Source: Psammoneis japonica (Eukaryota). Taken from it: a stretch of 64,000 nucleotides of DNA. Positions within the stretch are counted from its first letter, which is position 1, and every line of letters starts with the position of its first letter. Under the pieces are notes generated by a model, which was given only the letters and a program-made list of their open reading frames with translations, searched no databases and was not told where the DNA came from. Location: the NCBI GenBank assembly GCA_008632985.1, contig QPGO01000029.1, positions 124,001 through 188,000 on the forward strand, written 5' to 3'. Of this stretch, positions 10,419-49,301 are shown one piece after another. Position numbers and translations under genes: made by a program.

Positions 10419-10769
10419 ATTCCACTATGGTGTACGGTGTACCGGTATCTCTCCTTTGCCGTTCCTTCTGCACGCAACCGCCATGGGACCCTCAATTTTG
10501 TGAAGGGAAGTGAGACGTGAGACATCATTCTCTATTCTACAATATACATATCCATAGCTTTTTATATGCCATCTTGTTGGGTTATCAGCCGGCCTTCGAC
10601 CTGCATCTTCCAATCTCCAGACTCTCTCTCTCTCTCTACCGGCACTGCTCTACTCCAGCCACGACTGGTAGAGGGCCCCTGCTCTCTAGAGCAGCTGCCA
10701 GCTCCGAAGTAAGTAGAGAGTACCTGGTACAGGTAGAGTGGAGCTCTAGAGACGACGAGGAACTCCTCG

Positions 10770-12010
10770 ACCTTGCTTTGCTTTGTTCGCAATGCCACTT
10801 GCAAGAAACCTTTTTCGCCAGCCCCAGAGCTTGCCAGAAGCTCAACAAGAGTCTGGTGTGTGAACTCTCGTCCACCCCAAAATTGTGGCATGAGCATTGC
10901 CTCCAAGCCTTTCTTGATTTGGGATTTTTCCAAAGGAAGTTTGATCCTTGTCTCTCTTTTGCTCTGACCCAGGAGAGACTGTGTGGTGTGGTCATCTGCC
11001 TGAATCGTGACTGTGGGGTCAGCGCCGTGCACCAGTCTGCCATTTTTGATCAAGTCATCCAAGGCCCGCATGAAAGCTTTGCCAAGTTTCTTGGGATGCC
11101 AAGTCTTGGAAGCAGATGAGCAGCAGCACTGTCAAATTGTCTCGCACAAAAGCGCTGCTGGTGCAATGATCAACATGACATCGGCAATGGCTGCTGGCAT
11201 GCCCCAATGGCACCAAGTGATGGCAACAAAGACAAAATGATTGACGGTCAAATTGTGAGCAGAGACAGGGAAGATTTTTGGAGCTGCATTGCCAAGAGGC
11301 CTCACAACAGGAAACATGCAGACAGCAGTGCTGAAACATGGCCCCAGAACGCAACTTGGCTGTGATGACCTTTTCTCAGCAGGCTGTCACAAGCACAATG
11401 CACGAAAGAACAAGAGTTCTCCTCAACTCAGAAACCAGAGCTCTTGATGCATGGGGGGGGGGGGGGGGGGGGGGGGGGNGGGGGGGGCAAGACATTGAGA
11501 TGTCAAAAATTTGGGCTGCAAACCCCCAGCATTTTGTCAACAGCAGCTGCTCAAGCACTTCTTGGTGTGGTGACCCCACTGGCAAGTCTGTGGATCAGTC
11601 TTGGGGCTGCCCTTCCATCGCTGGTGTGCTTTTGCACTTGTCTGCAAACAATCATCATGGCATTGCTTTGGCAGCAAATCAAATTGCAAGACTGCTGCTC
11701 CCAAGCAGTCTCATCATGTTGCTGCTTTCAAAACCCTTGTGTCTGGCACCTTGCTCAAGAGAGCTCACACTGAAGGCATTTGCTTGCCTCCTGCAGACAT
11801 TCTGGATCTTGATGAGTCTGTGGGTTGGCATCAATTTCACCAGCCTCTTCCACCAGCAGCTGGGTTCCAACCCAAACTTGGCCCAGTCCCGTGCTGGCCA
11901 CTTGACCACCCTCTAAACACCTGTCCTTTGGTCCTCTGGAAATGACAGCTCCAGACTGCAATCTCTTGCTTCACTCTCAAAGCTGAGTGACAATGCACCT
12001 CTTTTGCCCT
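10770..12010 (+). mobile_element. Degenerate Ty1/copia RT-RNase H remnant
   Basis: KLNKSL...PKLWHEH...LGFFQRKFDPCL; DPTGKSVDQSWGCPSIAGVLLHLS...IALAANQIAR; PKQSH; SRAGH; CPLVLWK*QLQTAISCFTLKAE match copia motifs (APKLWY, GFxQSxxDPCL, YPSIVGMLLYL, PKQSH, CPLxWKSQLQTxIxxSTxEAEY). Confidence 0.85.
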
Positions 12011-15000
12011 CAGAGGACCTCTGTTGCCTTTGAAAGGAGTGTTTTGAGCAATCTCATGTTGGCCTTTGGTGTTGGAAGTTGTGGCCAGCCATCTGGCTCA
12101 CATTTGGTCTCACCACCACCCCAACTCACTGCGTGGCTTGCAAACACATTCTCACAGTGCCGTTGTCCACTGTTGCCATGTTTGCCAGGTGCAGAAGCTA
12201 AAAAGTGAGCACAAGACCCACCACCCAAACCAAGTTGTGAATGTAAATTTGCCATGTCATCCACAATTGTCAGTGCATCTTACACTGCAGCTCTGTCTGC
12301 CTCTGACCCTGATGTTCCAACATTTGGTGCTTGTCAAGATCTCAACACAACACCTCTGTTTGTCCTCAGGAGTGTTTGAGGACAACCAAGAAGCCCTCTT
12401 TCTTGTGGCTGGCTGCCACATCATCAACCACACCAACACATGTTTTCTGGTCAATTGGAGTTGACTCTGGCCCTGTTGTCACAAATTTTTGGTTGAGGTT
12501 GAGTGTGCAGGACAACTCACAGATTTCTTCTCCAAACCTTTCACTGGAGAGCTCTGCATTGCAGGCAGGAAAAATGCTCAGGCCAGGATGGCAAATTGTT
12601 GCGTGTGTCCATGTTTGTTGGTTGTTTGCCAGCATGCATTGTGGCTCAGGCCAAGATTGGAGGTGCTGCAACCAGGCTTCAAACTTGCTTGTCCCAACTG
12701 GGCTCTTTCTCACAAATTGTTTCAAATTGGCAGATGAGTTGAGGATCATCTGTCCAGCAACCCAGCTTGTTTCCATCTGTTGATGCAAGTTGTTCCCACC
12801 ATCATGTTGGCCCCAACTGCTCCTCTTGGAGCTCAGAGGAGCACAACAACAGCTGTGCATCATGAGTGTCACAAAGCCAGTTTTGGCTCTTCTTGGTGCA
12901 AGGTTGGTCATTGAGAACTTGGCATCTTGCTCCTCCATCATGGTGTCGCAACTTCTCTCTTCCATGCACTGTGAGCTGGACTTGCCCAGCTGCACTCACC
13001 TGATTTTGGCCTGGACAGCTGACAATTGTGGTTGGCCATGTTGTGTGAAGGACCTTCTTTGACCCAATGCTGCGCCATTGTTTGTCAGCAGAGCATCTCC
13101 TTGCACTCCCATCTGATGCACTGACCTGCAATGGAAGTCCAGTCAGTGCTCTGGAGATGGAAAAGGTGTGCAAAGCTCTCTGCTGCACACACCCAGCCCA
13201 CCACAAGCTGCTGTTTTTGCCATCAACAATCAACAGGCACCAGAGCAGCTCAGTCAGCTGGGATGACATTCTGCAACAACTGCCCCATTGCTTGTCAGGA
13301 GAGAACATGTGGCAGAAGAAAGGACACTCAAGATGCTCCCTCTGTGCCACTTTTTACATGATCTTGCCCATGACCCAAACATTGGCCAGCATTGGCAGAA
13401 ATGAAAAATGACAACATGCTGAAATCATGACATTCTTGCTTGCCACTTCTCTGTTGGGCTTGGCATGTAAAACTTGTGGGCATCTGTTTTCTCACCATCA
13501 AGAAGTGGCAGCAGAGCTTCCCAAACATGACTTTGAGTTCAGGCCAGTCTGGTTGTCCATCACAAAGCCTCCCATCTGGAACAAAGTGCATGTCTTCTTC
13601 ACCAAGTTCAACTCATTCTCACTGAAGTGCATGGCTGGAGCTTGACATTTTCATTTCAAAGGAACCACCAAGTGCAGGAGCTGGGTGTGCACTGTTTGTT
13701 TGCCAATGAGTGTCAGCAGCAGGACAGCATCACAGGATTTCTCTTGCATCTCATGTTGGGAGTGGCACTCAACTGAGGATGGTCTTTCTTGCCATCTCAT
13801 GACAACCATGTGAAGAAGCCTTGGAGGGAGCCAACATCCAAATTCAAGAAGGAAGGGGCTGTGCACTCACTGTGTTGCCACCCAAAAACAACATTTTGGC
13901 TGGGGCAGAGATTTCAAGGGTCCATTTTGACAACAACTGTGCCCCCCCTCCTCTGCATTGTGAAATTGGGCAATGCTTGCAAGAAGCAGATGGTTGAGGA
14001 TGACCACCACCTTTCTGAGGAGCTCAGCTCAGGTCACTTCAATTTTTCAGCCATGTCTTTGAAAATGATCCAGGGTGTGATTTGCAAGTTTTTCTCTGTG
14101 ACATTTGGGATGCCACCAGGACATCAGACTGGAGAGGATTGCTGAGTGTGTTTTTGCAGATGAGGTTGCAAGGTGTTTGTGTTCATTCTTCATTTGATGG
14201 GCATCATCCAAGCAGCCCCTTTTCAGCAAAATTGGAGGTGCTGATTGCAGCACTTCTTTGTGAACAAGAGTTTCAAGGCCACATTGATGATTGAACTTAA
14301 AAGCTCACAACTGTTTGACACATGTGCAAACCAAGTTAATTTCTGACACATGTTCTTGCATTTGAAACACTTTGTGACAGAAAGTTCAGATCTGCATCAA
14401 TGCTTGAACTCAGGCTCATGTTGTGGAGTTGCAAATCAAGTCATTTCTGAAGCTCACTGGTGCACAAAAAGAGAGCCCTCTTTTCAATTTAAAACCTGTG
14501 ATGGTTTGAGCTGTTGGTGGAGAGAATTGTTGAAACCAGGTGCAACTTGTCATTTTCTGCAAGAAGACACTCAGAATTTGAGTCAGCAAGCATCCACTGT
14601 CCATTTCATTCTTTTTGAAGATTCAAGATGATCAGAGTCTTTCAAAGTGCACGATGTTGGACAACATTGCCGCTGCCACACCAGTCTTCTCCAACTCATC
14701 ACAAAATCTTTTTCCAACACAAAATTGGGAGCGCCATTTCAGCACGACACCCACTTGTGTCTCACCTCTGCACAAGTCATTCACAGTTGACTTTGGCTTG
14801 GTGCCACAGCCAGTTTTCTGCCCTCCACAGGTGCTGGCCAGAAGACAGTCCAGAGAGCAGACAAGCATTTTTGACTTGTTGGATGGGTTGATGATGCCAC
14901 TGTCTTTCTGGGGCAAAAGATGCACCAGACTGTGGGAACAGACAGATGCTTTGATGAATGACATTGTGCCAACTTTGTTGCTGGAAGCACAGCTGTGGAC

Positions 15001-15430
15001 TGAGAATGACCCCCACAGTTCTCAACTCTGTTTGAAGACATTGCAATGTCCTCCACACAAATTCACGTTCTTGTGCCATCTCGGGTCTCTGTTGGGAGAG
15101 CCTGCAGAAGAAGCCAAGTGGCATGTACTTGGGCTGTTTTGCAGGGATGCCTGCCAGTGATTTTTCACAAGAAGGAGTGGTCAAATTGAAATGTTTGAAG
15201 AGCACCACAATCAATGGTCTCTTTCTGAAGATGCATTGCTTCCTTTCTTTTCACTGGATCGGCACCCTCCACCGCAGCCACAGCATGTCTGAACCCATTG
15301 TGGGGTGTTCCCCGGTTCTTGCCACAACTCGACTTCAGCTTCCACTGGACTGTGCGGTCTTCCACTTACCAAGTTTGTCAGTCTGGAACAACATCACACT
15401 GTCAGCATCCGTGACGGTGCCAGAGACTCT
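12010..15430. mobile_element. Unidentified degenerate (probably transposon-derived) sequence, TpA- and CpG-depleted
   Basis: Same composition as the adjacent copia remnant, fragmented coding-like frames, no motif I can assign. Confidence 0.5.
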
Positions 15431-17712: not shown

Positions 17713-17875
17713 TGGCCAGAAACGTAGCTTCAGCTTTGTGTCTGGTGGAGAAAACTGCAAACTGCTTTTTAAAATGGTCGCAGCCAAATATGTAGCTCAA
17801 ATTTAGAACCGAAATTATGCTAGAGACTATTTATGTACGCTTGCATTTTCAAAATATGAATAAGCAATCTGAAAG

Positions 17876-19507
17876 CTAAGTTCGAGCAAACGCCTTGAGT
17901 GCGGGAATGATGTATGCGCATACAAGCCAACTGTAGGGAGCCGTGAACACATAGCTGTCCACACGATCCATGATTCCTCCATGTTCAGGGATTAGATCCC
18001 CAAAATCCTTGAAACCGGCATCCCGTTTTAACATCGATGCTGTCAAGTCTCCAATGAGGCCTAGTAAGCCCACAATTATTCCATGTGTAGCTCCAGTCAC
18101 TAGCCAATATGGCCATTTTTGTACCCAAGCACCAAGAATACCCAATGCGCAGCTCACGGCACACCCACCAAACACTCCTTCAACAGACTTGTTTGGACTG
18201 GTGGCACCCGCCGCCGGTGCTACTTCTCCCAACTTGGTGCGACCATATTTTCTTCCAACAAAGTATGCTCCAACATCGCTAAAGGCAATGGCAAGCCATG
18301 TCCAAAAGATGAAAATGGATCCTGTTGTGATTGGAAGATGAATCGATTTGGGAATAAAGGCGGGAAGAGCACTTGCTTTTGTCCCTAGTAACTCGAGAAG
18401 AGGACGAACCAGAGGAGCCAATCGGGTTGGTTCCATGCCTCCGCCAATCAAGCGAGTCCGGACCCAAAATGAGGGAACATAACCAAACAGGAACATTCCT
18501 GTAAACGTAGTTGCAATCTCTGGAATGGTGGTCACCTGTCGACGCATGGTCAAGAACCAAATCATTGCCCACAAACCGAACATTGGAAGGCATATCTGAT
18601 GAAGGTTCGGAGCAAATAGCGCCTGAAGTCAAAGAATGAAAAAATGACACAATGAGTGAAAATCATATAGTTTTTGTGCCTGCCTTTCCGTAATGGCAGT
18701 TGATCGTCGCCTACTTACAGTAAGAAACATGGAGCATGCCCCCACGACAGATATGCGTCTTGCAGGATAAACACCAGTGTTGATGACCATGCGATAGTAT
18801 TCTAATTGCCCAAGTATAGTCATCAGCGTGAAGAGAAGAGTAAAGATGTAGTTCCCTGAAAACACCCAACACGCCACAGCAGCTCCCATGACGGCCCCGA
18901 AAAGCACAGAACGGCTGCCCTTCTTCTTCGTCTTTTCCTCGACTGCTCCCTCGCTCTTCTCTTTGCCGCTGTCCGTCAAAGCAACAGCCGTTTCATTTAC
19001 CACAATTGATGGTTCACTCACTTTGGCACTAAGCTCGTGTTTTGTATCGTTGCTCTTGTGCATTACACTTAGCATTTCTTGACATGCTGACAGTAGATTC
19101 ACACGTGCAGTCTCGGTCTCTTCCTCATCATGAGTGATATCAAAATACTCTTCTCCTTGAACAAGATGCTCAACTCTCTCGATTGCAGCAGTAGCCTTGT
19201 CTTCTGCAATTCGTCTTCGAGCTACGGGGCTCGTATCAATCCACAGTCGTGCAAAGTAACCAGAATAAATGTTCCAAGCTCTTCGCGGCAGTGAGCCCTT
19301 CTTTTCTTTTGTCTCGTTCTCGTTTGAAGATGTTGCAAATTTACCAAAGTTTCTACTCTCAATTTTAGGAATAGAAGAAGATGGAACATGAAGTCCTCTG
19401 TGGATTCCATTTTGTCCAACATGGTGGTTGGGGGCGAAACTAACTACTTTTGGTACGCCGCTTAAAACGAGAAAGTAGGCAGCAAGCAACTGCGCTTTGT
19501 TCCCCAT
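17876..19507 (-). CDS. CDS: Phosphatidate cytidylyltransferase (CDP-DAG synthase), plastid-type presequence; 2 exons
   Basis: SDVGAYFVG, SPNKSVEG, GDLTASMLKRDAGFKDFG.LIPEHGGIMDRVDS. Intron 18623-18718. Signal peptide ending VVS-FAP. Confidence 0.92.
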
Positions 19508-26760: not shown

Positions 26761-27197
26761 GCGGAACGAAAAAAAAAATCAAAAAACTCCGACATCCGAG
26801 GGAATCTTCCGCGCACGAATCTTTTCAAGAAACGCGCGACTTCGAAATTGATCGATCATGTTCGTCATGACGTCATAGTTTCCGTCCATTCAACTTCGCC
26901 GACCCAAACAGTCGCCGACCTCTCGGGAGAGCTCACAAAATGATCGTGATGCGAGCTTGTTTTGCTCTCTCACAATTTGCTCAAGAAGCAACAAGAGAAA
27001 CAACAAGTTACTACAAGCAATGACGAACTCTATCCATACCACGATAAGACTATCGAAGAGCAGGCAAAAAATTTGATGCTCTCTGATCCTGACTTGCAGG
27101 AAGAGGCAAACTTGACAAACTTCAACATGCAGCGCCGGCGACAACAAGAACGACTTGAAGAAAGAGGTAGACACGAAGAAGGAATCTCAAAGCCAGT

Positions 27198-36364: not shown

Positions 36365-36849
36365 CAAATTCCGAGTAATGGAGAAGAGAGAGTTGCCAGT
36401 GCCACACAGTAATGCACACGCAGTGCAATCGTAGGTCAAGCCACAGTTGGAGTCCATTCTTTTGGCGCTACAGCTAGCGATTTACCCGCTGATGCCTAGT
36501 AGATAGCTAAATCGCTAGTAACTGATGCCAAACTCCACAAACTGAAATGCATTTGAGGCACATAGCATATGACCCATTGCCAATGTCATCCAATAAGATG
36601 CTTCGTCTCGAAGTCGCACTCTAGAGCTGTCTTTCTCTAGTCACAAGGCTGTGTTTAAAGGGACAGTGATTCAAAACAAACATTTTAGAATTTTGGGGAG
36701 GAGTTCAAAGCGCTTATGACGCCATCTCCACTGCATCCACCTCGCTCTATTCTACTTTAGTGGGTCGGGCTGGCTGACTGGCCGGCCGGACCTTGCGGGT
36801 CCTCACAAAAGCGCGCTCGACTGTCCTCAATGTCACAGTAGACTAAGAC

Positions 36850-38963
36850 GCTCACAAGAGCAAATGGTCTGCGCAAGCAAGGACGCTTGCCCTCACTCTT
36901 GCCATGTGTGCAGCAACTGACAAAGAAATGGAACTTGGTGGCCAGGGGCCAAAGAAGCCAAAGGCAGGTGCATGTGGGTGCTGAAGCACTGCCCAGATGC
37001 AAAAGTCTCTGCTGGGAAAGAGCCATTGAGTGCACAATCCTTGCACCACAAGTGCACATTGAGGCTGCAAGCTGCAGCAGCAGTTGCTTTTGTGAAAAGA
37101 CGGTCTCTGTGAAGCTTGGGATCAAGTGCTCCATTGACACACAAGCTGTCTCATCATGTGCTCGGGTGAGGATGATCCAAAGCATCATTTGGACAGCTGC
37201 AGGTGTCAAGAACAAGGCAGCAAAGTGAGCACGTGGGACAACTGCCAACTCCTTGCTGCTGCAAGGAGCAATTCTTTGAGAAGAGGGTCGTGGCACCAAA
37301 GATCAGCTGGAGCAGCACCTTTTGGGCAAAAATTGTCTCAAAAAGACAGTCAACACAGCCATTGTCAAGCCCATTGTCAGGCAACTGTGCTTGGCTGACT
37401 GGAAGATGAGAACAGGGTGGGACAAATGGAGCAGCACATGAAGAGTTCACCAGAAAGGAGCTGTCATCACCTCAACACCCAAGTGAGAGGTTGGTGCAGC
37501 AAGCCAGCCAAGGTGGGCAAAACATTTTTGAGAGATCCCCTTTCAGAGTGTGTGTGTGGGGGGGGGGGGGGAATCCAAGAAGCAGTGCTCAAGACACATG
37601 GTGCCCTGAAAAGTTCAAGCAGTGCTGGGGTTGTTAATCTGGTCTTGCTGAGTGGTGGGAGTCTCCTCTGCAACTGGCAAGGAAGATTGTTTGGAACACT
37701 TGGATCAGCCAAACACTCTGGATGACAAAAAGGAAATTGGTTGTGGCCATGAAGAGCATGTGCCTCCTCCTTTGGAACATTTCCTGCCAATGATGGAGAG
37801 CACCTCCTGCTGTTGACACCAGCCCAGGATGCAAAGCAAGCTGCCGGTCATTCAATCTTTGCACTTGAAGCTGCTGATGAGCTTGTTGCAGCTCGGTCCA
37901 TTTCAGGCAGTGTGGAGCAAATCATCTTGCTGATGCATGCAGTGGTGGATGAAGAAGAAACTCTGACAAGAGCACCGCCAGGTGGTGCTCTCCATTTCAT
38001 GAGACAGCTCAGCAAAACTCAATCTTCATCTGTGCTGGCTGCAACAACAAAGAAGAAGTTGCTGCACAGTGCACTGATGAGAGACGGGAAGTCATGAGAG
38101 CAAGCAGTTGGCAACAGCTTCAGCTGTGTTGCTGAACAAGTTTGGAGAACTGTGCCATGTCTCAAGGTTGTTTGCACCAGTTGAGTCAAAGTCACAATCA
38201 AGCTTTTTCAACACCACAAGGTTGACTCAAAAACTCAGAAGTCTTGCTGCTTGACTTGCAGACCAAAGAGGAGCCAGCCCTGGTCAAGTGCTTGAAGCTT
38301 TGTCAAGAAAGGCCAAGCCATCAGAACCATGAGGTGTGTTGTTCTCTGTGCTCTTGTTCTGGGTGCATGTTGACAAGCCAAGAAAGACCAACAAAGAGAC
38401 AAGGGCAGATGGGTCATCATTTCAAAGCCACAATGGGGCATCATTGGTCAAGTGTCCAATCATGGCCAGCATGCTTGGCTTCAGCTCTTTTGAGTTGCCA
38501 CCACAGGCAAAGTTGGTGTGCATCAGAGAAATCCACCAACCCCCAGGTTCCCAAAGATGCATCATTGCAAGACACACTTCTTTGGCTGACACAAAATGTG
38601 GGCCACACTGAAGAACAATCCATGGAAGCTTGAAATGTGCTGGCTGAGAGAATGCCCCCCTTTTGGTGTTGCACTTGTTGTGCAGCACATTGTGATGAGA
38701 GACAACTTGCTTGGAAAGCCACACACAAAAAGGGCTGAAAAGCCATCATCATGATTCATGGCATGTTTGGTGGACTTGGACCCAGTCACCTCTTGCACAT
38801 GATGCTGCCAGCTCTTTCTTTTGCAAGCTGCTCGGGGTGCTGCTCAGTGAAAGATTCATTCAGACAGCCACTCTTTGAGTGCAAGAGAAACATTTCAAAT
38901 GATGTGTGAGATTTAGAGTTGAGGCTTTGTGAAGGTTCTGTCTCTCAGCTGGCAAGGGCCAAC
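36850..38963. mobile_element. Unidentified degenerate TpA-depleted repeat-derived sequence
   Basis: Compositional continuity with the copia element to the right; no assignable motif. Confidence 0.45.
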
Positions 38964-39387
38964 TGTTGGAACATCTAGAAGATGGGCAATTCCAGGAGCC
39001 CAGACATGTTGAAGAGAAAATGTTGTTGCTCCTGACATGGAGGATTCAGCGACTCTTTGTGATTGAAATTTCATCATCATTGATCTCTCTTGCCTTTCTG
39101 TTTGTCTCACTCTTTGGAGCAAATCATTTGGTTTGTTTGGTTTGCATGATTTTGTTGCATTGGTGGTGCCACTGGGTGTCTGTCATGTTGCAGGTGTGAA
39201 GTTTGCACTGACAACTTCTGGGCAACACACAGCTGCTGCAAGCAGCCAAAGCAAGAATGACAAGCAGCACAGGAAGTCTCACAGGATTCCCTTTTGGTGA
39301 CATTAACTTGCTGGCTCAATGTTGACTCCAAAGAGTGAGAAGCACTGCATTTGGTGCTTGACAACACTGTTCTAACTGCAGTCAACA
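38964..39387 (+). repeat. Putative 5' LTR (right boundary approximate)
   Basis: Starts TGTTGGA; first ~310 bp align by eye to 48227-48530; candidate end ...gtcaaca. Confidence 0.65.
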
Positions 39388-40399
39388 GATTGCAGAGTGC
39401 CTGCACAATGAGAGGCAGAGGAAGTGGCAGATCTGACAACCAAGGCTGAGGATGCAGTCACAGAAGAGGTGACAAGAGTTCTGGGTTCTCTGGTCTGAAG
39501 AAGAGGACCATTGCTGAGAAGCACTTTCAGCCTGAGATGAAGTTCCATCCTTCATCACTGAACAGCAACTCTTGCAAGAATGCAACATGCAAAGACATCA
39601 AGGAGAAGATCACACAACACACACAGAAAGAGGGTGCTCAAGATGTGCATTTGAAAAGATCCACAGAAGACATGAAATGCAATGTCTTCAGTTCTGAGAA
39701 GCCAAAGTCAGGTGCAGCCACAATGACCTTGCAAAGCAAGGGAGATGGAAACTGTCAGTTAGAGCTGGAAAAGAGATGACAAGAGGAAAAAAAGCTGGAG
39801 CACCAGTGCAAGGGGAGCTTCATGAGCACACAATGACAAAGTGAGGCAGTTCAAAGAGAACAAGGCTGCTGCATGCACCAAGATCCCAGACATTTGCTGC
39901 ACCAAGCTGACAAAGAAGAGGGAGTGCAAGGCAATCTCACTTGTGCAAGCATTGGCGACAATCTGATCAAGCCACTGAAGCTGCTGATCCAGTCACTTGC
40001 ACTTGACACCCATCACACACACTTGCCAAGTCTCTGCAAAATGGGCTGGATGAAAACAGCAAGAAAATGAGTTGCTGAACAACTGCCTGTCAAGATTCAA
40101 GAATCAACAAGATGTTGCAAGTGAAGGTCTTTTGGGAACAAGATGCCAGATGGATTCATTTCCCACACCAAGGAGCACAAGAACAGCATTGTGGTGAAGA
40201 AGCAAGTGCTGAAAAATGCAGTGTTTGAGAAATGGACAACATTCCTTGTTCACAAAGAACAGCAACCCTTGACAAAACAGTGGATGCTGAGTCATCTGAA
40301 AGACAACATCCCTCATGAGGGACATGACAAGAGGAACAACAACAGCAATGATGAGAACAAAAACAAGAGGTCCAACCATGCAAAGGACTGGATCTGCAC

Positions 40400-43130
40400 C
40401 CAAAAGGGCAATCAGAGTGACACCACAGTTTGTGCTGCTGTTGCAGTGAACTGAGTCACAAGTCCCCAGACTGCAAGCTTCAAAATGACATTGCATCTGA
40501 CAACTGATTTAAGAATGTTGAGTCCAGCCTCAAGTTTGTGCTGCTGAACTGCACAGCCCTGGTCAATGTTGAAAGTTTTACACAAATGGCAACCACCTTG
40601 CCTGCAGGAGGTTCCATCATCATTGCTGGTTTGACCATGCTTTTTTGCATCTAGGGCAAAATTTGGAAAGACAAAGGATGGAAATGCTGCGCAAGCAGAT
40701 GTTGACATTTCTTGTTGCACACAAGAGGCTGCTCCCACATTGTGTTTGTGGCTTTGCAAGCACACAGAACAGGTGTTGCAAGGGTTCAAGGATGAACACA
40801 TTGGGGTGGAAAATGTGGGCCGCTGCTTCCAAAACTGCACCCGCCAGGTTGAACACCATTTTGCACCCCTCCTGAGAAAGAAAGTGAGGAGCATTCTCAT
40901 GAACAAGCATTTGAGTTTAGCCAGCAAATGAACAGGAGTCACTTCCCCATGCATTGGCAGCACCACAATTTGGAGACTTTGGAGTGTGGCATTGAAGAAA
41001 CACTTCCTGGTGGCAGCCCGCCATTTGGCCATTACCTCGACATTTTTGAGCTGACATGCTTTGATCTGGTGGCAGCCAAAGTTCTCTGCAAGGATGCCAA
41101 AGAACTCTTGAATGATTTTGATGCAAAAATTTGCAAAGTTTCCTGGGGTGGCCAGAGATTCTCCATCCCAGATTCTCACAACACCTTCCATGGGTGCTCG
41201 ATGCTAGAGAACCCCAGCGGCAGCTTCAAGAAAATTGTTTGGAACTCATCGTAGATGCCCATGCTCGGATGGATGGATGGATGGCGCCGTGATGATCGAG
41301 ATTTTCCTTGTTTCTCAGAGTTGTGGCGTTCACGTCATTGACGCTCCGCCCGATTTGCTGATTGGTGGATCTGATTCGTTGGACATGCCAGACGACTTTC
41401 AACAATGGCTGGAAGGATCTGAGAAACAAGTGAAGATGGAGAAAAGGTTCCAGGACGCCACAGTGTGCTGTTTGTGCTTTCTCCGGCCTCTCAAGATCCC
41501 AGACAAGAAGCTGGATGAAATGAGCCGCATTCCTGTCGGCTGATTTATGATGCAGCAACTGCAAAAGCATCCTTTCAAATGCTCTCAATTTGATGAATGC
41601 CGAGCTTACACACAGCTGTCGTTTGGTCCTCGTCAACAGCTGGAGAGGCCGCATTCTTGACTCTGCTCTGGAACTGCATGCACTTGAGCGCAGGTGTGGA
41701 CGCGTTGTGCAGCTGCAACAGAAGAAGTGGTGCACGCGGCAATGCCCGTGGGCTTTTTCCTTTTGGTCCCAACATTCTGCGACGAGGTGGGATGAAAGAA
41801 TCCCACATCCCACGCATCACTTGAGCAACAGGGAAAACACCAAGTGCAGGGAGCCCCGAAGTGCCCCTCATCTCAACCATGGATGCTGCAGCTAAAACAA
41901 GAAGGTGAAAGTGTCATGACCGGGGCTGTCAATTTAAGTGCTCGCAGCAGGTTCGACAGAGCTGCAAGTGGTCGACATGTGCGAAATCAGCAGCTGCACA
42001 AGTGAAATCACTTGCAGCCAGCACGTTTCTTGCAATTGAGACAACCCTGCTCATGGCACTTTTGTTGACTCCAATGTTTGCCCTTCATGTGCTGCAGACC
42101 GCCCATGCCTCGAATGGGATCCTTGGCGCAATTGCAACATGACAACCAGTCAATGTCTGCGGAATCCCAAATGTCGCCCACGCAGCAAGCCTGTCCTTCC
42201 GTTTTCCTTTGTTCCTCTTGCAGCATTTGCATGGTTGGAGGCCAGGCAGTTTGGCCCATCCAATGCGACGTGTCCACGGGTGCGCAACAAAAATGGCAAG
42301 ACATTGTTGTTTCGACCTGGGCTCTGACGGATGTTCTCAAGCAACAACTTTCTCTTGTCCTCTGACAGCAAGCGAAATGTTTGTCGCTGGTTGTGTGACG
42401 GAGCATGTGTGAGCCCATCATGCTCATCGGCTGTCGCAACTTGCATGCCGCCTGCAGAGGCGGGGCCTCAGTTCTTCATTTTCATTGGCTGCTGAAAAAT
42501 TCGGCGCGGCACAGCAGAGCTGTAGATCCCTCAACCTCTCGTTGTGGATGAAGTTTGTGTTTTTGTGATTTGAACTTTTGCAATTTGAAATCGATCGGAA
42601 GGATCTCTCGATCTCAACCTTTTTGCCACCAATCCTCGATCTGACATCTGACAGCATCTTCCTCTTGTTTTTCCTGCTCTCGCTCTCCACGCCACCATCA
42701 TGACAAGTTCTTTCCAGTCATCCAACTGGTCTCGCATTGCAGCACAAACAGCCTTGTTGCTGTCTTGTTTGTTGTCATTGGCAATGTGCCCACATTCCAA
42801 AGTGGAAGAATCCTTTCTGTTCCAAGCATTGCATGACTTTGTTTTGACTTGCTGCATTTTTTTGGCATTTCCCAGTTCACCCGCACGCTGTGCGGCAGGC
42901 AGAACCCAGCGCCATCGCCCATCCAACGCAACAACTCGGTCGTCGTCGCATCCATCGTGGCGTCCCTTGGGAGGTTCCCCCGTCAACCTTCCACTGCTTG
43001 TGCACGAGTCGTCACACACAAAAACGACATGTCAACACCTTGTCAGTGGACAGCAACAGTGCCCATGTGTCGACGCCACCAGATCCAATTGATCAGCACG
43101 TTCCAGCTGAAGCAGGAGTGCTGCATGGCA
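40400..43130. mobile_element. Unidentified insertion between gag and pol; much of it CpG-retaining but TpA-depleted
   Basis: Interrupts the copia polyprotein order; abrupt rise in CpG from ~41200 to ~43100. Boundaries approximate. Confidence 0.5.
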
Positions 43131-43139
43131 TGGATTGCA

Positions 43140-46100
43140 ACTGGCAAATGAAAGGTCAGAGATGATGAGCATGAACCAAGCCAAAAAAAAAGACACTGGC
43201 GTGGTGGATGAGATCAACCTTGACATTGGCTCTGCCCCCAGCATGGCAGCAAGCCAGACATGTGTGCACAATGTGCGGCCAGCAAAAATCAAGATTAATC
43301 TGTTCACAAACACAGGAATGGTTGTCCCAGATGAAGACCGCACCACATGCCTGAATGGGAAGGATGTGAAGCTTGGATTGCAAAATGTGACAGCAAACAT
43401 CCTCAGTTTCAAGGACATGAAGAGCAAGTGCAGTGTCACATGCGACAACTGGGCAGCGGATGAGCAAACAAGCTGTGGTGTTCAAAGTCAACAACACATT
43501 GGCGCCAAGCCAGAAGTTCTCTGACATGCAAAAGATCTCAAAGAAAGAAGCAAGTCATGTGCTGGCATGCTGTCAAAGAAGAAGGGGGGGGGGGGGGGGG
43601 GGGGAGGAGGTGGTGGTGAGTGCTGCTGAGCAAGTGCTCAGATTGCACCATGAAGCTGGAATTCCCAGAGTGAGAGATTTCAAGCTGTTTTTACAATTAA
43701 ACCAGGTGATGAAGAACTTGTCCATCTTGCCTGAAAATGTGAACAGGATGGTGGCCATGTTTGGGGAACATCTGCAGATGTGCTGAAAAAGGGAAGTTCA
43801 AATGTGCACGTTGGTCCCATCAGAGAAATGACATTGTTGCTGTTCCACCCAAGACACACAAGAAACAGAAAGAAGGTGTGATCCTCTGCATTGATGCTGC
43901 AGAAGCATGCAGAGTGAAGATGCTGTGTGCAATTGACAAGATGATCAAGTGTCAGTCAAGTGTGAGATTGCAATCCAAGAAGCACATTGACACACACAAT
44001 GCATTGGACATGACACTGTGCCAGTGCAACACAGCTTTGTTGAACAATGACTTCATTGAGTGTGAGGATCCCCAGTTCAAAAACATGTTGGTGGAAGTCA
44101 CAGATGGCATGAACCCAGAGCCAACATTTGCAAACAATGGCAACCATGTTTTCTGTGAAGTTGGGTGTGGAGCATTGAGACCATCAAGGAGCAAGCTCAC
44201 GTCCATGCACACCACCTGTGCCACACAAAATGACACCCAAGTTGATGTGCAAGCATGCCATGATCAAGAACACTGTGATGGCAAACATGTGCCCACAGCA
44301 GGAAAGAATTTCTGACATGTGCAGTCCATGACACACTGCTGTGCAACAAAAAAACCTTGACTGTGACAAGCACTTTGTGCTCACCTTTGGCTCATTTGTC
44401 CCATCTCACATTGAAAACAACCCAACAAACACCATGGACACACATGGGGCATTGACAGCACATGCCTGCAACCATGTTTTGACATTCCCAAGGTGGTCAC
44501 TGCACTGTGAACCTGCATGCATGGAAGCTGTTGAACCCCTGCAAGTGTGCTGCCTGTGCCCCTGACCAACACACATGCACCAAAGCAGTTGAGAAGACAG
44601 CCTCAGCACAAGGCATCAAAGGCTTTGAATTTGTGGGCAAGTGTGGAGACAACCTGCGCGAGGCAGGTTGGATGGCAGGAGTTGACAATGACGACAGCAA
44701 CAGCAACAGCAAAGACAAAAGCAAGGATGAAAACAAAAATGAGCACAACAATTAAGAATGGAAGGGCTGTGAAGACAAACCTGACCCAGATGATGAACAT
44801 GAAAAAGCCAATGAGATCTGGCAGGCACAAGATCCAGCCCCAATGAACAGCACAATGACCATGAAGATGATGAACAAGAAGACTGCAAACAAGACAAAGA
44901 GTCAGAAGAAGGCAAAGTGTCCACAGATGAGAAAAGCAGAGAAGCAAAACTGACAGATGAGGTGGGAAAGATGCCAGGCACAGTGACAAAGAGTGGCGCA
45001 AGGTTCAGTGCATCCCACAATGCAGGGTCACATGAGCACAGAAAAAAGAAAGTTCAGTTTGCAATGAGAGCGGCAGAGATGAAGAAGTGGAGCAAGAGCA
45101 GAACAAGCTCAAGCACTGCCATTGCTTGAGAACAAACATTGGCCCCAATCCAGAAACTGACGTTGAACATCACACAGAAACAGGAACGGTGCTGGCACAA
45201 TTCATGTGTGAGATCAATGACCAACTCTGATCAGGAAAGGGCACTTCCTTTGCCCAATGGCATTTGCTGCATGAAGGCCTGAAGCATTCAGCCAGAGGGG
45301 GCATGGTGCCTTGCCAGAGAAGGAGATGAAACAGTTCCATGACAGAGCATGCTTTGTGCCAATGTCAATCAAAGACATGACTCTGGTTGAGAGGACCAAG
45401 GCCATGGTTGTTCTGACATTTCCAACAGAGAAGCAAGACAGTCACCTGAGAGGGCAAATGGTCTGCAATGGAAAACCAAACAAAGAATGACTGGACAAGG
45501 ACAAATCAGCTGGCCCGACAGCATCATTGGAAGGAATGCTGATCACAGCTTTTGTTGATGCCAAAGAGTGTGACGTGATGAGAGCCAATGTGCCAAATGT
45601 GCTCACATGCAGACATGGAGCCAAAGGAAGGCAAAGACCAGCTCATGATGAAGATTGCAGGAGTGTTGGTCGACGTGCTTGTGAGCATGATCCCAACCTG
45701 TGGCACGGTCATGGAGAAGGAGAAGAGAAGTCTCCATGTCCAAAGCTGTGCAAGGCACACCAAACATGGCTCCACTGTTGTGTGAGCATGTTTCACAAGG
45801 ACTTGGAGAAGATTGGGTTTAAGCTTGACCCATGTGATCTGTGCATTGCCAGTCAGTCAGGAGTGTCAATGGCAAGCAGCACACTGTTTGTTTCCATGCA
45901 GATGATCTGTTGTCAAGCCACAAAAAACAAAAATCAAACAACAAATTTTTGAGTTGGCTGAACAAGATGCATGGAAGCCACATGGTGAAGTTGCACAGCA
46001 ACATGAGAGAAGAAGCATGGCTGCCTCAGCATGACCCTGGACTTCAGCCACAAGAGCAAGGTGAAGGTTGACATGACTGAGTGCACTCACAAGATGTTTC

Positions 46101-46860
46101 ATCAGTTTCTGGACAAGATCAAGAGCACAGACACTGCCATGGCACCATCAGGGAAAACCTGTTTGATGCTGGTGGTGCCAGATTGCCAGCCAAGAAAGCA
46201 AAGACATTCCATGCAGCATGGGTGGCCAAGGGACTGTTTGCATCCAAGAAAGGCCACTTGGATGAGCACCCCACCATTGCAGAGTTGTGTGTGCAAGTCA
46301 GGCAGGCAGACAACAAGGATTGGGGAAAGCCACTCTGTTGTCTCAACTTTTTGAGCTGGACACAAAACAAAGTTGCTGCATTGAGCACAAAGGACCTCCA
46401 AGTTGTCAAATGGCATGTGGATGCATGATTTGCAGTGCACCCAGATTTCAAGAGCCACACGACAGGATTTGTGACTGTGGGCAATGGAGCAGCAAGCAAG
46501 CTGTGTTCAAGCAACAAAAGCTCAACACCCAAAGCAGCACCAAAGCTGAGCCAGTGATGACACAATGACCACCATGGCATTGCAGATGAAGTTGTTTATG
46601 GAGCACCAAGGCCATCCAAATGACAAGAACATCCAGCATCAGGACAACAAGAGCACCATGCTGTTGGTGACCAGTGGGCACAGGAGGGCGGAAAACACTC
46701 CAGAGCACTTGATGCTCAGCATTTTTTCATTGCTGATCAGATCAAGAAGGCAATCTTAGAGTGCAGTGTTGTCTCTCTGATGAAATGCTCAGAGACTTCA
46801 TGATTGAGCCACTGCAGGGCAAGAAATGTCAAAAATTCAAATGAGCTGTTTTGTGGGGTG
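43140..46860 (+). pseudogene. Copia pol pseudogene (protease end, integrase, RT, RNase H)
   Basis: ANILSFKDMKSKCSVTCD, LHHEAGIPRVRDFK, FGSFV..H.ENNPTNTM, EMKQFHDRACFVP, TEKQD, VCNGKP, PTASLEG, GFKLDPCDLC, GKQHTVCFHADDL, KWHVDA*FAVHPDFKSHT, QGHP...HQDNKS. Confidence 0.9.
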
Positions 46861-46885
46861 TCAACTTCAAGTGTGACAGGAGTGT

Positions 46886-48218
46886 TTCCTGTTTCTGACT
46901 GACAAGAATTCTGATGCATGTGGATGAAAGAACCCTGCAACCCCCAGAAGATGTGGCGAACCACATGTTTTTTTAGAGCAAGCATGATGTTGATGACCAT
47001 GATTGCTGGCTGTGTGCAAGGGAGCTGCCAGGGCACATCAACAAAATCCTTGAGCCAAATGATGCAATTGATGGCCATGACATTGTTGGGATGTGGAGTT
47101 TAAAAGTCAGATGGATTGCCGGACAAGAAGAGGAAGAAATTCCAGGAAGATGACTGCTGTCAAAAGGCACTGGAAGAATGTGACAAGTGGATGAAGTGTG
47201 GACACTCCTGACTGCCTCAAGACCCACCACGTTTTCACAAAGAAGCAACCAATGTGGGTCTTTTGATGATTGAGTTCAACAAGGACACGAGGATGCCCAC
47301 CTGGAGCATTCTCAGTGCATGAATGGTGGAACAAAACAAGAAGAAATTTGTGGAAATGTGGCATGAGCTGTGGACAGCAAGAAGGCACAATCTCATGTGA
47401 GATGTGCATGCTCAAATGGACAGGGTGGCCTGACAAAGTGTGTCGGTGCATGTCCGCTGCCACATGCTGATGATCTCCCTGTTTGACATTGCAGGAAATC
47501 ACACAAGTGCCAACAAGGGAGGGAAGCACACAAGACCAAAGAATGTTGGCAATTGTTGAAGGCCAAGCCTGGGTGCAAGACAAGGGACAGCACCACAAGG
47601 AATTGCATCATGACAAGCATTCCAACAAGTGTGGAAGAAACAACAATCATGGGATCAAGAGGCAATGAATTTTTAGACAAGCATGGTGTCAACCATCTGA
47701 GTGGACTGTCATCAGTGGGTTGTTCCACCTGTGGCATGGGCTTCTGTGGGGGACATGTGGCCTCTCTTGTGGAGTGTGGCACCAACTGACCCAGAGAGAG
47801 CAAAATGTGGTGATTTGGATTGGTGGTGTGAGGCAACAATGGTGTCATGCATGATGCTTTGAAGTTGGCATGATTCTTCCAACATGACATTGTTGAAGCA
47901 AAGCCTGAAGCACAGTGGGCCTGTCATGACATGGAGCTCTTTTAGCCATGCTCATGGACAATCATGATTGGGTCATGCACCCAATCAGCCAAACAGCAAG
48001 GCTGCAATGGAAAGGACTCATCACACTCATGTGAAACATTCAGTGGATCAAGCAAGCAAGATCACAAATGCATTTGATCATCTGCTTGATTTCCATTGTT
48101 GCAAACCAGGACAGTCACTCACTGTCTGTGATCTTGTGGCAGACACACCAGAAGAAAGTGCCAAGCTGGCATGCTTTGACAAAGTTGGGCAGTGGCAGAA
48201 AGTTGATGTGAGCTGCAG
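46886..48218. mobile_element. Nested ~1.3-kb insertion at the PPT/3' LTR junction
   Basis: Flanked by near-identical 9-mers caggagtgt (46877-46885) and caagagtgt (48219-48227). Confidence 0.5.
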
Positions 48219-48226
48219 CAAGAGTG

Positions 48227-48530
48227 TGTTGGAACAAACAGAAGATGGGAAATTTTAAGAACCCAGAAGTGTCAAAGAGAAGACAGCGTTGCTCCTGATG
48301 TGGAGGATTGGGCAGCTGCTTGCATTTGAAACTTCATTGTCGCCAATCTCTCTTGCGCCTTTCTGTTCATCTCATTCTCAAGCTTTGGAGTGAATCATTT
48401 GTTTTTGCCATTTTTTTGCACTGGTGCCACTGGGTGTCTGTGGCATTGCAAGTTTGTGTCAACAACTTCCAGGCAACCCAAACAGCCAATGCAAGCAGCC
48501 AAGACAAGCATGACAAACAGCAAAGAAAGC
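48227..48530 (+). repeat. Putative 3' LTR (apparently truncated)
   Basis: tgttggaaca...gaagatggg...gttgctcctga...tggaggatt...ggtgccactgggtgtctgt...acaacttc...gcaagcagccaa shared with 38964-39275. Confidence 0.75.
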
Positions 48531-49301
48531 CCGCTGCACACTGCAGAAAGTGATGCCCTGCCAATGTTGAGAAAGCTGCAGCAACCACTGGAGAAGCAGC
48601 AAAAGACACAAAGCTCTGGGAAGCATTGAAGTGCAAAACATGTGAGAGCACTCAAAAGAGCTCCCACCCACTCTGCCTCAAATGGCGCCTCTGCACTGGC
48701 AAAAGACACCACAAGAGCCAGCTGAGTTTGAGGATGAACTGTTCTTGTCTCTGCACCTCCATGATGGCAAGGCGCTCAAGTCACTTGCAGCCAAAGCAGA
48801 GGCTTTCAAGGCAGAAGCTCTGCTGCACAAGTGTGCGCGGCTGCTCCCGAAAGAACTGCTGCCATGTGGTGAGTGTGCACACTTGCAAACAACGTTGTCC
48901 ATGGTGGCATTTGCTCCACTCCATTGTCAACAACACCTGTTTCCTGTGATTCATCCTCACCAACAACTGACAGGCTTCATTTCTGCCAACAAGAAGTGGG
49001 GCCATGGCCAAACATGGAGTGTCTCTGAAGAAGAGTGCGACGACCCCCAGCAGGGAGTGGCTCTCCGCGTGCTTTTGGGGCACGCAACACGCAACGAAGG
49101 CTGCCATGAAGTGGTGGCGCACAAGCTTTGTTTTAGGTTGATGTCCGCCTTTCTTTCCTTCTCTCTTCTTCTTTTCTCTTTCTTCCCTTCTCTTCCTTCC
49201 CGCCCTCCTTTACAGCATGTCTCTATCTGCTTCCGCCCCTGACACCTGACGCCTCTCTCCGCACATCGCGCGCATCCACGGAATTGTTGCCTTCGGCCGC
49301 A

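What the first reader, a model, noticed from the sequence alone, without database searches (positions are those of the whole stretch)
43400..46660. Conserved copia Tyr codons systematically read as Cys or His, giving the direction of mutation
Seen versus recalled CoDi/copia motifs: KYxVTYD->KCSVTCD (~43425-43446), LYH->LHH, VYNGK->VCNGK (45461), NPYD->DPCD (45830), KxYG->KMHG, KWYVDA->KWHVDA (46411), QGYP->QGHP and YQDN->HQDN (46610-46645). The RT catalytic region reads GTT TGT TTC CAT GCA GAT GAT (45886-45906), consistent with ancestral VRFHVDD carrying one CG->TG and one TA->CA change. TAY->TGY and TAY->CAY are the two strand outcomes of the same A->G event at TpA, so TpA was lost after insertion rather than by codon preference.
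Basis: partly seen in the sequence, partly recalled or inferred. Interest (0 to 1): 0.8.

Follow-up and report, generated by a model that had tools for sequence, protein, structure and literature searches.

The report
TpA-erased dead copia retrotransposon
A dead copia-type jumping gene in what earlier notes of this scan call a diatom genome has had nearly every TA step rewritten to TG or CA, so all its conserved tyrosines now read as cysteine or histidine, the footprint of a rare, targeted DNA-mutating process.

Summary
I built a profile from 120 uninterrupted Ty1/copia polyproteins, each with a Pfam RVT_2 domain. It maps one decayed element on the + strand at 39414-46853.

- **Tyrosine fate:** 41 mapped columns have Tyr as the relatives' consensus. 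The window has 0 Tyr there: 16 Cys (TGY), 12 His (CAY), 4 Phe and 9 other residues. No Tyr codon remains among 1503 mapped codons.
- **Controls:** other consensus residues are kept in 419 of 818 columns. In the earlier tally of Tyr columns (39 columns, gap-inflated cell count) the relatives carry Cys or His in only 140 of 4560 cells.
- **Frame independence:** 19 of 21 A-to-G changes at first codon positions follow a T, so codon preference is excluded.
- **After integration:** the two LTR-like repeats differ by 13 TG/CA swaps. The TA-free tract (36845-49134) runs past both repeats and through a nested 2.6 kb insertion that still keeps its CpGs.
- **Second process:** CpG decay separately explains Arg turning into Cys, His, Gln or stop.
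- **Surviving TAs:** 27 of 39 are YTAR and none are RTAY. This hints at a T-A-pyrimidine preference.

The same signature was noted by this scan on other pieces of this genome. In print I found it only in a 2026 preprint on Bigelowiella natans. The enzyme is unknown; an adenine deaminase is inferred, not shown.

The parts
36845..49134 (.). Main tract almost free of TpA, and mostly free of CpG. It has sharp edges: the last flanking TA is at 36844 and the next one outside is at 49134.
   Evidence: 30 TA in 12290 bases; TA O/E 0.02-0.12 per kb against 0.28-0.98 outside; CA and TG O/E 1.4-2.6.
38964..39279 (+). 5' LTR-like direct repeat, starting TGTTGGAAC.
   Evidence: 71% identical to 48227-48532, and 87% identical in purine/pyrimidine coding.
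39414..40516 (+). N-terminal (gag-like) part of the polyprotein, profile positions 7-377.
   Evidence: The Tyr columns here read Cys 6, His 1, Leu 1, Lys 1.
40517..43077 (.). Nested insertion of unknown nature, lying between profile positions 377 and 399.
   Evidence: The 120 relatives have at most 53 residues in this interval. No Pfam family in any of six frames.
41199..43099 (.). Sub-tract that has lost TpA but keeps CpG.
   Evidence: across 41001-43100 there are 8 TA and 90 CG (CG O/E 0.6-0.7); the neighbouring element has CG O/E 0.04-0.23.
43078..44730 (+). Protease-like and integrase-like parts of the polyprotein, profile positions 399-930, in several frames. The domain names are inferred from copia gene order, not from Pfam.
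   Evidence: Includes KCSVTCD at 43426-43446 and LHH at 43643-43651.
45072..46156 (+). Reverse transcriptase region. It is colinear with the RVT_2 match of relative P0151 (residues 1246-1486).
   Evidence: Pfam finds nothing in the window copy itself.
45886..45906 (+). RT catalytic box, reading V C F H A D D where the relatives have V/I R F H V D D.
46147..46853 (+). C-terminal (RNase H-like, inferred) part, profile positions about 1425-1659. Holds KWHVDA, an in-frame TGA at 46426, QGHP and HQDN.
48227..48532 (+). 3' LTR-like direct repeat, starting TGTTGGAAC.
10750..15125 (.). Second tract free of TpA and CpG. It is not similar in sequence to the first. It holds only a weak copia-RT-like piece at 10838-11089.
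   Evidence: 9 TA and 29 CG in 4376 bases.

Best explanation
This is an old, dead Ty1/copia-type LTR retrotransposon: LTR-like repeats at 38964-39279 and 48227-48532, and a polyprotein remnant at 39414-46853 split by a 2.6 kb insertion. It lies inside a 12.3 kb block of repeat DNA.

After integration, a DNA-level process confined to this block changed the A:T pairs of TpA steps to G:C. On the strand read here, each hit shows up as TA>TG or TA>CA. This removed more than 90% of the TpAs, so every Tyr codon (TAY) became Cys (TGY) or His (CAY). It also produced Ile>Met, Leu>Pro(CCA), Val>Ala(GCA), and Asn>Asp, Lys>Glu, Ile>Val and Thr>Ala after a T.

A second, separable process, CpG>TpG/CpA decay, is most simply deamination of methylated CpG. 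It turned Arg codons into Cys, His, Gln or stop.

Shown here: the TpA context, independence from reading frame, both strand outcomes, the direction, the sharp confinement to the block, and at least partly post-integration timing.

Inferred: that the chemistry is adenine deamination (A to hypoxanthine, read as G) by a DNA-acting deaminase aimed at silenced or foreign DNA, as proposed for Bigelowiella natans; and that it prefers a pyrimidine 3' of the A.
For: - **Composition:** TA O/E is 0.02-0.12 in the tract, against 0.47-0.95 (median 0.64) in 67 related metagenome loci of at least 1.5 kb (12 of the 79 loci were shorter and left out) and 0.28-0.98 in the rest of the window.
- **Tyrosine columns:** 0 Tyr, 16 Cys and 12 His in 41 columns. 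Other consensus residues are kept in 419 of 818 columns. Phe is kept in 27 of 32, His in 14 of 16, Cys in 11 of 14.
- **TpA context across codon borders:** 19 of 21 A>G first-position changes follow a T; 0 of 85 kept A-start codons do.
- **Codon identity of replacements:** Leu>Pro 5 of 5 are CCA, Val>Ala 2 of 2 are GCA, Ile>Met 6.
- **No strand runs:** Cys and His outcomes are interspersed along the element (I counted 15 runs by hand where about 14.7 are expected).
- **After duplication of the LTRs:** 13 TG/CA double mismatches. Of 65 mismatches, 48 are transitions. There are 31 adjacent mismatch pairs, against a mean of 13.9 and a maximum of 24 in 2000 shuffles.
- **Extent of the tract:** it runs beyond both repeats and through the insertion, which keeps 90 CpG but only 8 TpA.
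- **CpG decay:** Arg is kept in 5 of 36 columns and replaced by CAA/CAG 9, CAC 4, TGY 5 and TGA 1.
- **Surviving TAs:** 27 of 39 are YTAR and 0 of 39 are RTAY, against 18% and 30% of 15001 TA sites in relatives' DNA (p=5e-12).
- **Published parallel:** the same TpA>TpG/CpA signature was measured as de novo mutation in B. natans (preprint 10.64898/2026.01.13.699255, section 7).
Against: - No enzyme, no methylation data and no whole genome could be examined.
- The ancestor is represented only by a consensus of relatives that share about 30-45% identity with the window copy. Single sites can therefore be wrong: 13 of the 41 Tyr columns are neither Cys nor His.
- The TG/CA swaps between the repeats may come from CpG rather than TpA.
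- The inserted DNA could already have been TA-free when it arrived.
- The 3'-pyrimidine preference rests on 39 surviving sites, some of which could be new mutations.
- Among Tyr codons, TAC went mostly to TGC (13 against 4) and TAT mostly to CAT (8 against 3; p=0.019). This is confounded with position along the element.
- The only run holding the stretch is probably the source sample itself.
Confidence: 0.75

Rival explanations
1. Passive mutation bias. In silenced or late-replicating repeat chromatin, a lesion or repair error that happens to favour TpA accumulates over a long time, together with CpG decay. No dedicated, targeted system is involved.
For: The element is old. It has about 17 transversions in 293 ungapped repeat columns, many frame shifts and about 1.3% in-frame stops. 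CpG decay, an accepted passive process, sits in the same tract. TA O/E is already below 1 everywhere in the window.
Against: The edges are sharp to within a few bases. Erasure is near-total while 51-63% of other conserved residues survive. At first codon positions A>G occurred in 19 of 19 sites after a T, against 2 of 87 elsewhere (derived). The CpG-keeping insertion is nevertheless TA-free. In B. natans the same signature arises at about 1000-fold the basal rate, and only in some lines (abstract).
Confidence: 0.13
2. RNA-level A-to-I editing (ADAR-like, with a 5' U preference) of the element's transcripts before reverse transcription, so that already-edited copies were integrated.
For: Retrotransposons pass through RNA. 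ADAR enzymes favour a U 5' of the edited A (as stated in the preprint's discussion).
Against: The two LTR-like repeats, which are identical at integration, differ by 13 TG/CA swaps. TA loss continues 2.1 kb and 0.6 kb outside the repeats and through a nested insertion. A second, unrelated tract shows the same loss. Both strands are hit about equally (TG/CA ratio 0.89-1.03). ADARs are known only from animals (recalled, from no call).
Confidence: 0.04
3. Sequencing or assembly artefact: modified bases in repeat DNA are miscalled systematically as TG or CA.
For: There is an N at 11479 and there are long G runs in both tracts. Only one public run holds the stretch, and it may be the source sample.
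Against: Contigs assembled from that run by exact 31-letter words hold 0.93 of the sampled words. Predicted proteins in other public assemblies (ENA, Logan) show the same Tyr>Cys/His recoding: clearly 5 of 82 tested, plus one partial case. The copy also carries indels and transversions typical of a real old relic.
Confidence: 0.04
4. Selection or codon preference against TA in a still-functional element.
For: TA is under-represented in most genomes, and in intact relatives too (median O/E 0.64).
Against: The reading frame is broken into at least 14 pieces with in-frame stops. Columns where Tyr is invariant or nearly so (1.00, 0.99, 0.97) and the RT-box Val (0.99) are replaced. The loss ignores codon phase and covers non-coding DNA.
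Confidence: 0.01

Closest known systems
TpA-restricted hypermutation of integrated giant-virus and virophage DNA in Bigelowiella natans (Mettrop et al., bioRxiv 10.64898/2026.01.13.699255). I read the abstract, sections 7, 11 and 15, and passages.
   Same: Almost only A>G and T>C changes, all at TpA, giving TpG or CpA depending on the strand. Confined to foreign DNA. Leaves TpA-poor, CpA+TpG-rich sequence. TE-type Pfam domains are enriched among TpA-depleted genes there.
   Different: Here the host is a different organism, a diatom according to earlier notes of this scan. The target is an LTR retrotransposon block. Erasure is near saturation. It is superimposed on CpG decay, a word absent from that text. 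Surviving sites point to a 3'-neighbour effect; that text holds none of the words trinucleotide, context or flanking. Here only the fossil footprint is seen, not a measured rate.
Repeat-induced point mutation (RIP) of Neurospora and other ascomycetes (details recalled; mentioned).
   Same: Dense transition mutations limited to repeat DNA with sharp borders. They destroy transposon genes and create a skewed dinucleotide make-up.
   Different: RIP changes C:G to T:A, mainly at CpA, and so creates TpA. Here TpA is destroyed and CpA/TpG are created. Dependence on duplication and on a premeiotic stage could not be tested.
CpG decay by deamination of 5-methylcytosine in methylated transposons. Diatom TEs are CpG-methylated through DNMT5a (PMC9998398, passages).
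   Same: It explains the CpG loss and the Arg>Cys/His/Gln/stop changes in the element.
   Different: It cannot remove TpA. The 41.2-43.1 kb piece has lost TpA while keeping CpG, so the two processes are separable.
Diatom copia-like (CoDi) retrotransposons (Maumus et al. 2009, PMC2806351; term search only).
   Same: A copia-type polyprotein with an RVT_2 reverse transcriptase in its relatives, and flanking direct repeats.
   Different: Membership of a named CoDi group was not tested because no reference sequences were at hand. That paper holds none of the words RIP, dinucleotide or point mutation.

Membership tests
Ty1/copia LTR retrotransposon | Reverse transcriptase of the RVT_2 (PF07727) type | tested here: met
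   Pfam finds nothing in the decayed window copy itself. The copy does match the profile of 120 relatives at E=7e-54 and 8e-51. All 120 carry PF07727 in the precomputed lists, and 3 of 3 rescanned here do too.
Ty1/copia LTR retrotransposon | Gene order gag-protease-integrase-RT-RNase H, with integrase before RT | tested here: inconclusive
   The window is colinear with full-length relatives from profile position 7 to 1659. RVT_2 lies in the last third of the relatives. Pfam names no integrase or protease in 3 of 3 relatives, so those domain names rest on motifs I recall.
Ty1/copia LTR retrotransposon | Flanking long terminal repeats starting with TG | tested here: met
   Direct repeats at 38964-39279 and 48227-48532, both starting TGTTGGAAC. 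However, 1.37 kb of unexplained DNA lies between the polyprotein end and the 3' repeat.
Ty1/copia LTR retrotransposon | Target-site duplication, primer-binding site, polypurine tract | not tested
   The repeat ends are too decayed to fix.
TpA>TpG/CpA hypermutation (B. natans type) | Changes are A>G or T>C and fall on TpA | tested here: met
   28 of 41 Tyr columns are TGY or CAY and 0 are Tyr. 19 of 21 first-position A>G changes follow a T.
TpA>TpG/CpA hypermutation (B. natans type) | Both strand outcomes occur | tested here: met
   16 Cys against 12 His. TG/CA count ratio 0.89-1.03 in the sub-tracts.
TpA>TpG/CpA hypermutation (B. natans type) | Confined to foreign or repeat DNA while the rest of the genome is spared | tested here: met
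   Two sharp-edged tracts; the remaining 47 kb has TA O/E 0.28-0.98. That all of the tract DNA is repeat DNA is not shown: only the copia element is identified.
TpA>TpG/CpA hypermutation (B. natans type) | Directly measured, locally raised mutation rate | not testable with these tools
   This needs mutation-accumulation lines or population data.
Fungal RIP | C:G>T:A transitions (CpA>TpA) that enrich TpA | tested here: not met
   TpA is removed, and CpA/TpG are enriched to O/E 1.4-2.6.
Fungal RIP | Acts on duplicated sequence | not testable with these tools
   No whole genome is held. Within the window only the LTR-like pair is repeated.
ADAR-type RNA hyperediting carried into DNA | Edits limited to the transcript and identical in both LTRs at integration | tested here: not met
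   13 TG/CA swaps between the repeats. TA loss also lies outside the repeats and in the nested insertion.

The most novel reading that the evidence does not exclude
This organism (a diatom by earlier notes of this scan) runs an active genome-defence system that is the chemical mirror image of fungal RIP. A TadA/ADAT-like adenine deaminase would be directed to silenced repeat DNA and would deaminate the A of 5'-T-A-Y-3' on both strands until the TpAs, and with them all Tyr codons and many Ile, Leu and Val codons, are gone. It would act independently of, and faster than, CpG-methylation decay. The same system in B. natans would then be shared across two major branches of the SAR supergroup. The link to the U33-A34 context of tRNA deaminases is recalled, not tested.
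Probability: 0.4. Interest if true: 0.85.

Novelty: new member of a known kind. Interest (0 to 1): 0.68.

Why it matters
If this is a targeted process, it is a second kind of mutational genome defence in eukaryotes, with A:T>G:C chemistry instead of the C:G>T:A chemistry of RIP and APOBEC. It would be present in ecologically dominant algae.

The Tyr>Cys/His recoding gives a simple protein-level marker for finding affected elements in any genome or metagenome. Among the public relatives tested here, 5 of 82 already show it clearly.

The process also makes hypermutated transposons invisible to Pfam, so repeat annotation in such genomes will undercount them.

The surviving-site motif (YTAR kept, RTAY gone) and the piece that keeps CpG but has lost TpA give concrete tests for candidate enzymes.

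Tried and rejected
- **Pfam on the element:** 14 open pieces and 3 stop-read-through frames of 43000-47200 gave no copia family. The only entries were two chance-level matches with E>0.03.
- **Pfam on the rest of the tracts:** 24 frame translations of the other tract parts (10700-15200, 36800-39000, 40500-43100, 46850-49160) gave nothing. tblastn with all 276 fetched proteins against those parts found only a weak RT-like piece at 10838-11089, E about 1e-4. The insertion, the flanks and most of tract 1 therefore stay unidentified.
- **Whole genome:** none is held. No genome-wide map, no search for other copies and no search for a deaminase could be made.
- **Reads:** No read-level check was made.
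- **Purine/pyrimidine self-comparison of the window:** only the LTR-like pair stood out. The many short hits are noise, because the E-values are not valid for a two-letter alphabet.
- **Names of recoded proteins:** The listing of cluster members gave no names or organisms.
- **Strand-coherent runs:** not seen among the Tyr outcomes.
- **Third-base effect on the Tyr outcome:** p=0.019, but confounded with position, so not used as evidence.
- **Literature:**, with term look-ups, found no description of TpA loss in diatom transposons. Only listed titles and abstracts and the named passages were seen. The preprint's supplements (Table S2 with the mutated sites) are closed and may hold flanking-base data.
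Full report
**What is in the sequence.** A per-kilobase dinucleotide count shows two blocks, about 10750-15125 and 36845-49134. In them TpA is almost absent (O/E 0.02-0.12), CpG is mostly absent (O/E 0.02-0.23, except 41-43 kb), and CpA and TpG are in large excess (O/E 1.4-2.6). The other 47 kb has TA O/E 0.28-0.98 and CG O/E about 0.6-1.4. The edges are sharp. On the left the last TAs are at 36839 and 36844 and the next is at 37635. On the right the first TA outside is at 49134. The finding (43400-46660) lies inside the larger block.

**What the element is.** Pfam recognises nothing in this DNA, neither in open pieces nor in frames read through stops with X. A full HMMER search with a 241-residue read-through stretch (45838-46560) found 1340 relatives at E<=1e-3. 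A word-indexed search for longer proteins found 10, of which 9 carry PF07727 (RVT_2, the Ty1/copia-type reverse transcriptase).

Searching with the best full-length hit, P0151, gave 397 proteins at E<=1e-20. The 120 listed are 956-2005 residues long without interruption and all carry PF07727. Their Tyr content is 2.6% or more, with medians of Tyr 3.7%, Cys 1.2% and His 2.5%. In 3 of 3 rescanned, RVT_2 is the only Pfam match (38-45 bits), so this is a divergent copia lineage.

A profile of these 120 proteins (1663 positions) maps the window's + strand colinearly:
- positions 7-377 at 39414-40516;
- positions 399-1659 at 43078-46853, in at least 14 frame pieces;
- best pieces at E=7e-54 and 8e-51.

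Between positions 377 and 399 the relatives have at most 53 residues, but the window has 2.56 kb. This is a nested insertion. A 315-base direct repeat (38964-39279 and 48227-48532), with both copies starting TGTTGGAAC, brackets the element and is most simply its LTR pair. There are 1.37 kb of unexplained DNA between the polyprotein end and the 3' repeat.

**Fate of the tyrosines.** I took profile columns where at least 60 relatives have a residue and Tyr reaches 0.5. There are 41 such columns with a mapped window codon. They read Tyr 0, Cys 16 (TGC or TGT), His 12 (CAC or CAT), Phe 4 and other 9. At Tyr >=0.8 there are 18 columns: Cys 8, His 8, Phe 1, Lys 1 (which corrects, where terminal-gap marks had been counted as residues).

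No Tyr codon is left among 1503 mapped codons. Cys is 3.8% and His is 5.1% of them.

Controls:
- Other consensus residues are kept in 419 of 818 columns (threshold 0.5) and 247 of 395 (threshold 0.8).
- Phe is kept in 27 of 32, His in 14 of 16 and Cys in 11 of 14.
- Cys or His occupies 35 of 785 columns whose consensus is not Cys, His or Tyr (Fisher p=6e-25).

- Relatives carry Cys 22 and His 118 in 4560 cells of the Tyr columns.
- Tyr did not decay evenly: Cys plus His total 28, against Phe 4, Asn 1, Asp 0 and Ser(TCY) 0.

In 70 related metagenome loci with at least 8 Tyr columns covered (9 of 79 loci fell below that limit), the median share of Tyr kept is 77%, and Cys plus His make 46 of 1617 cells.

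The Tyr frequencies in relatives are:

| Motif site | Tyr frequency in relatives |
|---|---|
| LYH | 0.80 |
| VYNGK | 0.78 |
| NPYD | 1.00 |
| KxYG | 0.97 |
| QGY | 0.87 |
| YQDN | 0.69 |
| KY | 0.54 |
| VTYD | 0.65 |
| KWYVDA | 0.68 |

At the KWYVDA site, 7% of relatives, including the closest relative P0151, already have His. The RT box consensus is V/I-R(0.62)-F-H-V(0.99)-D-D, and the window reads V-C(TGT)-F-H-A(GCA)-D-D.

**The change is a TpA event, not a codon event.** At columns whose consensus is Ile, Met, Thr, Asn or Lys (all with A-start codons), the window shows the A>G partner residue (Val, Val, Ala, Asp, Glu) 21 times.
- In 19 of these 21 the preceding base is T.
- Among kept G-start codons the preceding base is T in 50 of 130 (p=7e-6).
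- Among kept A-start codons it is T in 0 of 85.

So first-position A became G whenever a T preceded it, and almost never otherwise. The codon identities of other replacements fit NTA codons: Leu>Pro is CCA in 5 of 5, Val>Ala is GCA in 2 of 2, and Ile>Met occurs 6 times. Loss across codon borders, in the repeats and in unidentified flanks rules out codon preference.

**A second process.** Arg-consensus columns keep Arg in only 5 of 36. The replacements are CAA/CAG 9, CAC 4, TGT/TGC 5, TGA 1 and Lys 9. These are the outcomes expected from CGN codons under CpG>CpA/TpG decay. Diatom transposons are CpG-methylated (PMC9998398, passages). The two processes are separable. Across 41001-43100, inside the insertion, there are 90 CpG (O/E 0.6-0.7) but only 8 TpA. 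Because the two processes push G+C in opposite directions, the tract's G+C (0.46-0.51) stays close to that of its surroundings. That last point is my inference.

**Timing.** The two LTR-like copies are 71% identical, but 87% identical when purines and pyrimidines are merged.
- Of 65 mismatches, 48 are transitions.
- 13 sites are TG in one copy and CA in the other.
- Adjacent mismatch pairs number 31, against a mean of 13.9 (maximum 24) in 2000 shuffles.

Independent resolution of the same ancestral step in two copies that were identical at integration means the change came after integration. However, these sites may descend from CpG as well as from TpA. For TpA specifically, the arguments are that the TA-free tract runs 2.1 kb and 0.6 kb beyond the repeats, that it runs through the nested insertion, and that a second, unrelated tract exists. 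This also speaks against editing of the RNA intermediate.

**Both strands, and a neighbour effect.** Cys (TA>TG) and His (TA>CA) outcomes are 16 to 12 and interspersed. By my hand count there are 15 runs against about 14.7 expected. TG and CA counts are near equal in every sub-tract.

The 39 TAs that survive in the two tracts are not a random sample:
- 27 are YTAR (13 are TTAA) and none are RTAY.
- In 15001 TA sites of the relatives' DNA, the shares are 18% YTAR, 30% RTAY and 6% TTAA (p=5e-12 for YTAR).

If each strand's A is hit on its own, a TA survives when both As have a purine on their 3' side. This suggests a preferred 5'-T-A-Y-3' target. The inference is exploratory, because some survivors could be new mutations. 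The B. natans text holds no words for flanking context.

**Comparison with what is known.** The preprint on Bigelowiella natans reports mutation-accumulation lines in which two integrated viral regions mutate about 1000-fold faster. There, 20 of 20 and 210 of 211 changes are A>G or T>C, all on TpA. The authors propose an ADAT2-like adenine deaminase. The footprint here has the same chemistry and the same confinement to foreign DNA. So I file it as a new member of that kind, in another lineage, on LTR retrotransposons and at saturation.

It is the reverse of fungal RIP, which creates TpA. I recall that tRNA adenosine deaminases always meet U33-A34, and that bacterial TadA meets U-A-C. That would fit a T-A-Y target, but no call tested it.

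I found no description of this in diatoms. Searches were. The founding CoDi paper holds none of the words RIP, dinucleotide or point mutation.

Earlier notes of this scan describe the same TpA erasure on other pieces of the same genome, including two other copia copies with Tyr>Cys/His recoding. So this is a repeat sighting within the scan.

Predicted proteins from other public assemblies show the same recoding. Of the 160 proteins from the first two searches, 82 cover at least 5 Tyr columns and were tested. Five keep at most 20% of the Tyr, with Cys and His in their place: P0021, P0069, P0120, P0042 and P0160. P0010 is a partial case with 4 Tyr, 7 Cys and 4 His in 16 columns. All are unnamed singletons.

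**Verdict.** What is shown is a post-integration, block-confined, TpA-specific A:T>G:C mutation on both strands, plus separate CpG decay. What is inferred is a targeted adenine deaminase. Still open are read-level confirmation, the genome-wide pattern, the nature of the flanks and the insertion, and the enzyme.

Noticed in passing
window 41199-43099: A piece inside the nested insertion has lost TpA (8 left across 41001-43100) but keeps CpG (90; O/E 0.6-0.7). The copia DNA on both sides has lost both. Its origin is unknown; no Pfam or copia match was found.
   Followed up: partly
window 10750-15125: A second tract free of TA and CG (9 TA and 29 CG in 4376 bases), with no DNA similarity to the first. 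It contains only a weak copia-RT-like match at 10838-11089 (E about 1e-4).
   Followed up: partly
both tracts (39 sites; positions listed): Surviving TAs are mostly YTAR (27 of 39; TTAA 13) and never RTAY. This suggests the erasing process disfavours an A followed by a purine.
   Followed up: partly
window 43585-43605 and about 11455-11490 (N at 11479): Long G homopolymer runs sit in both TA-free tracts. One interrupts the polyprotein between the protease-like and integrase-like parts; the other holds the window's only N. They may be assembly trouble or real G tracts.
   Followed up: no
window 46854-48226: 1.37 kb of TA-free DNA lies between the end of the polyprotein match and the 3' LTR-like repeat. 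The relatives have at most 71 residues after that point. It is possibly another insertion.
   Followed up: no
proteins P0021, P0042, P0069, P0120, P0160 (and P0010 in part): Predicted proteins from other public assemblies (ENA, Logan), all unnamed, show the same loss of conserved Tyr to Cys and His. P0160 has 16 Cys, 6 His and 3 Tyr in 26 columns, a possible strand bias.
   Followed up: partly
window 26001-27000 and 17001-18000: Outside the tracts, TA O/E varies from 0.28 (26-27 kb) to 0.98 (17-18 kb). I did not examine whether the low value is a mild or partial case of the same process.
   Followed up: no
locus L060 (1138 bases): One related metagenome locus has 2 Tyr, 2 Cys and 3 His in 8 Tyr columns. 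It is a possible partly converted copy in another sample.
   Followed up: no
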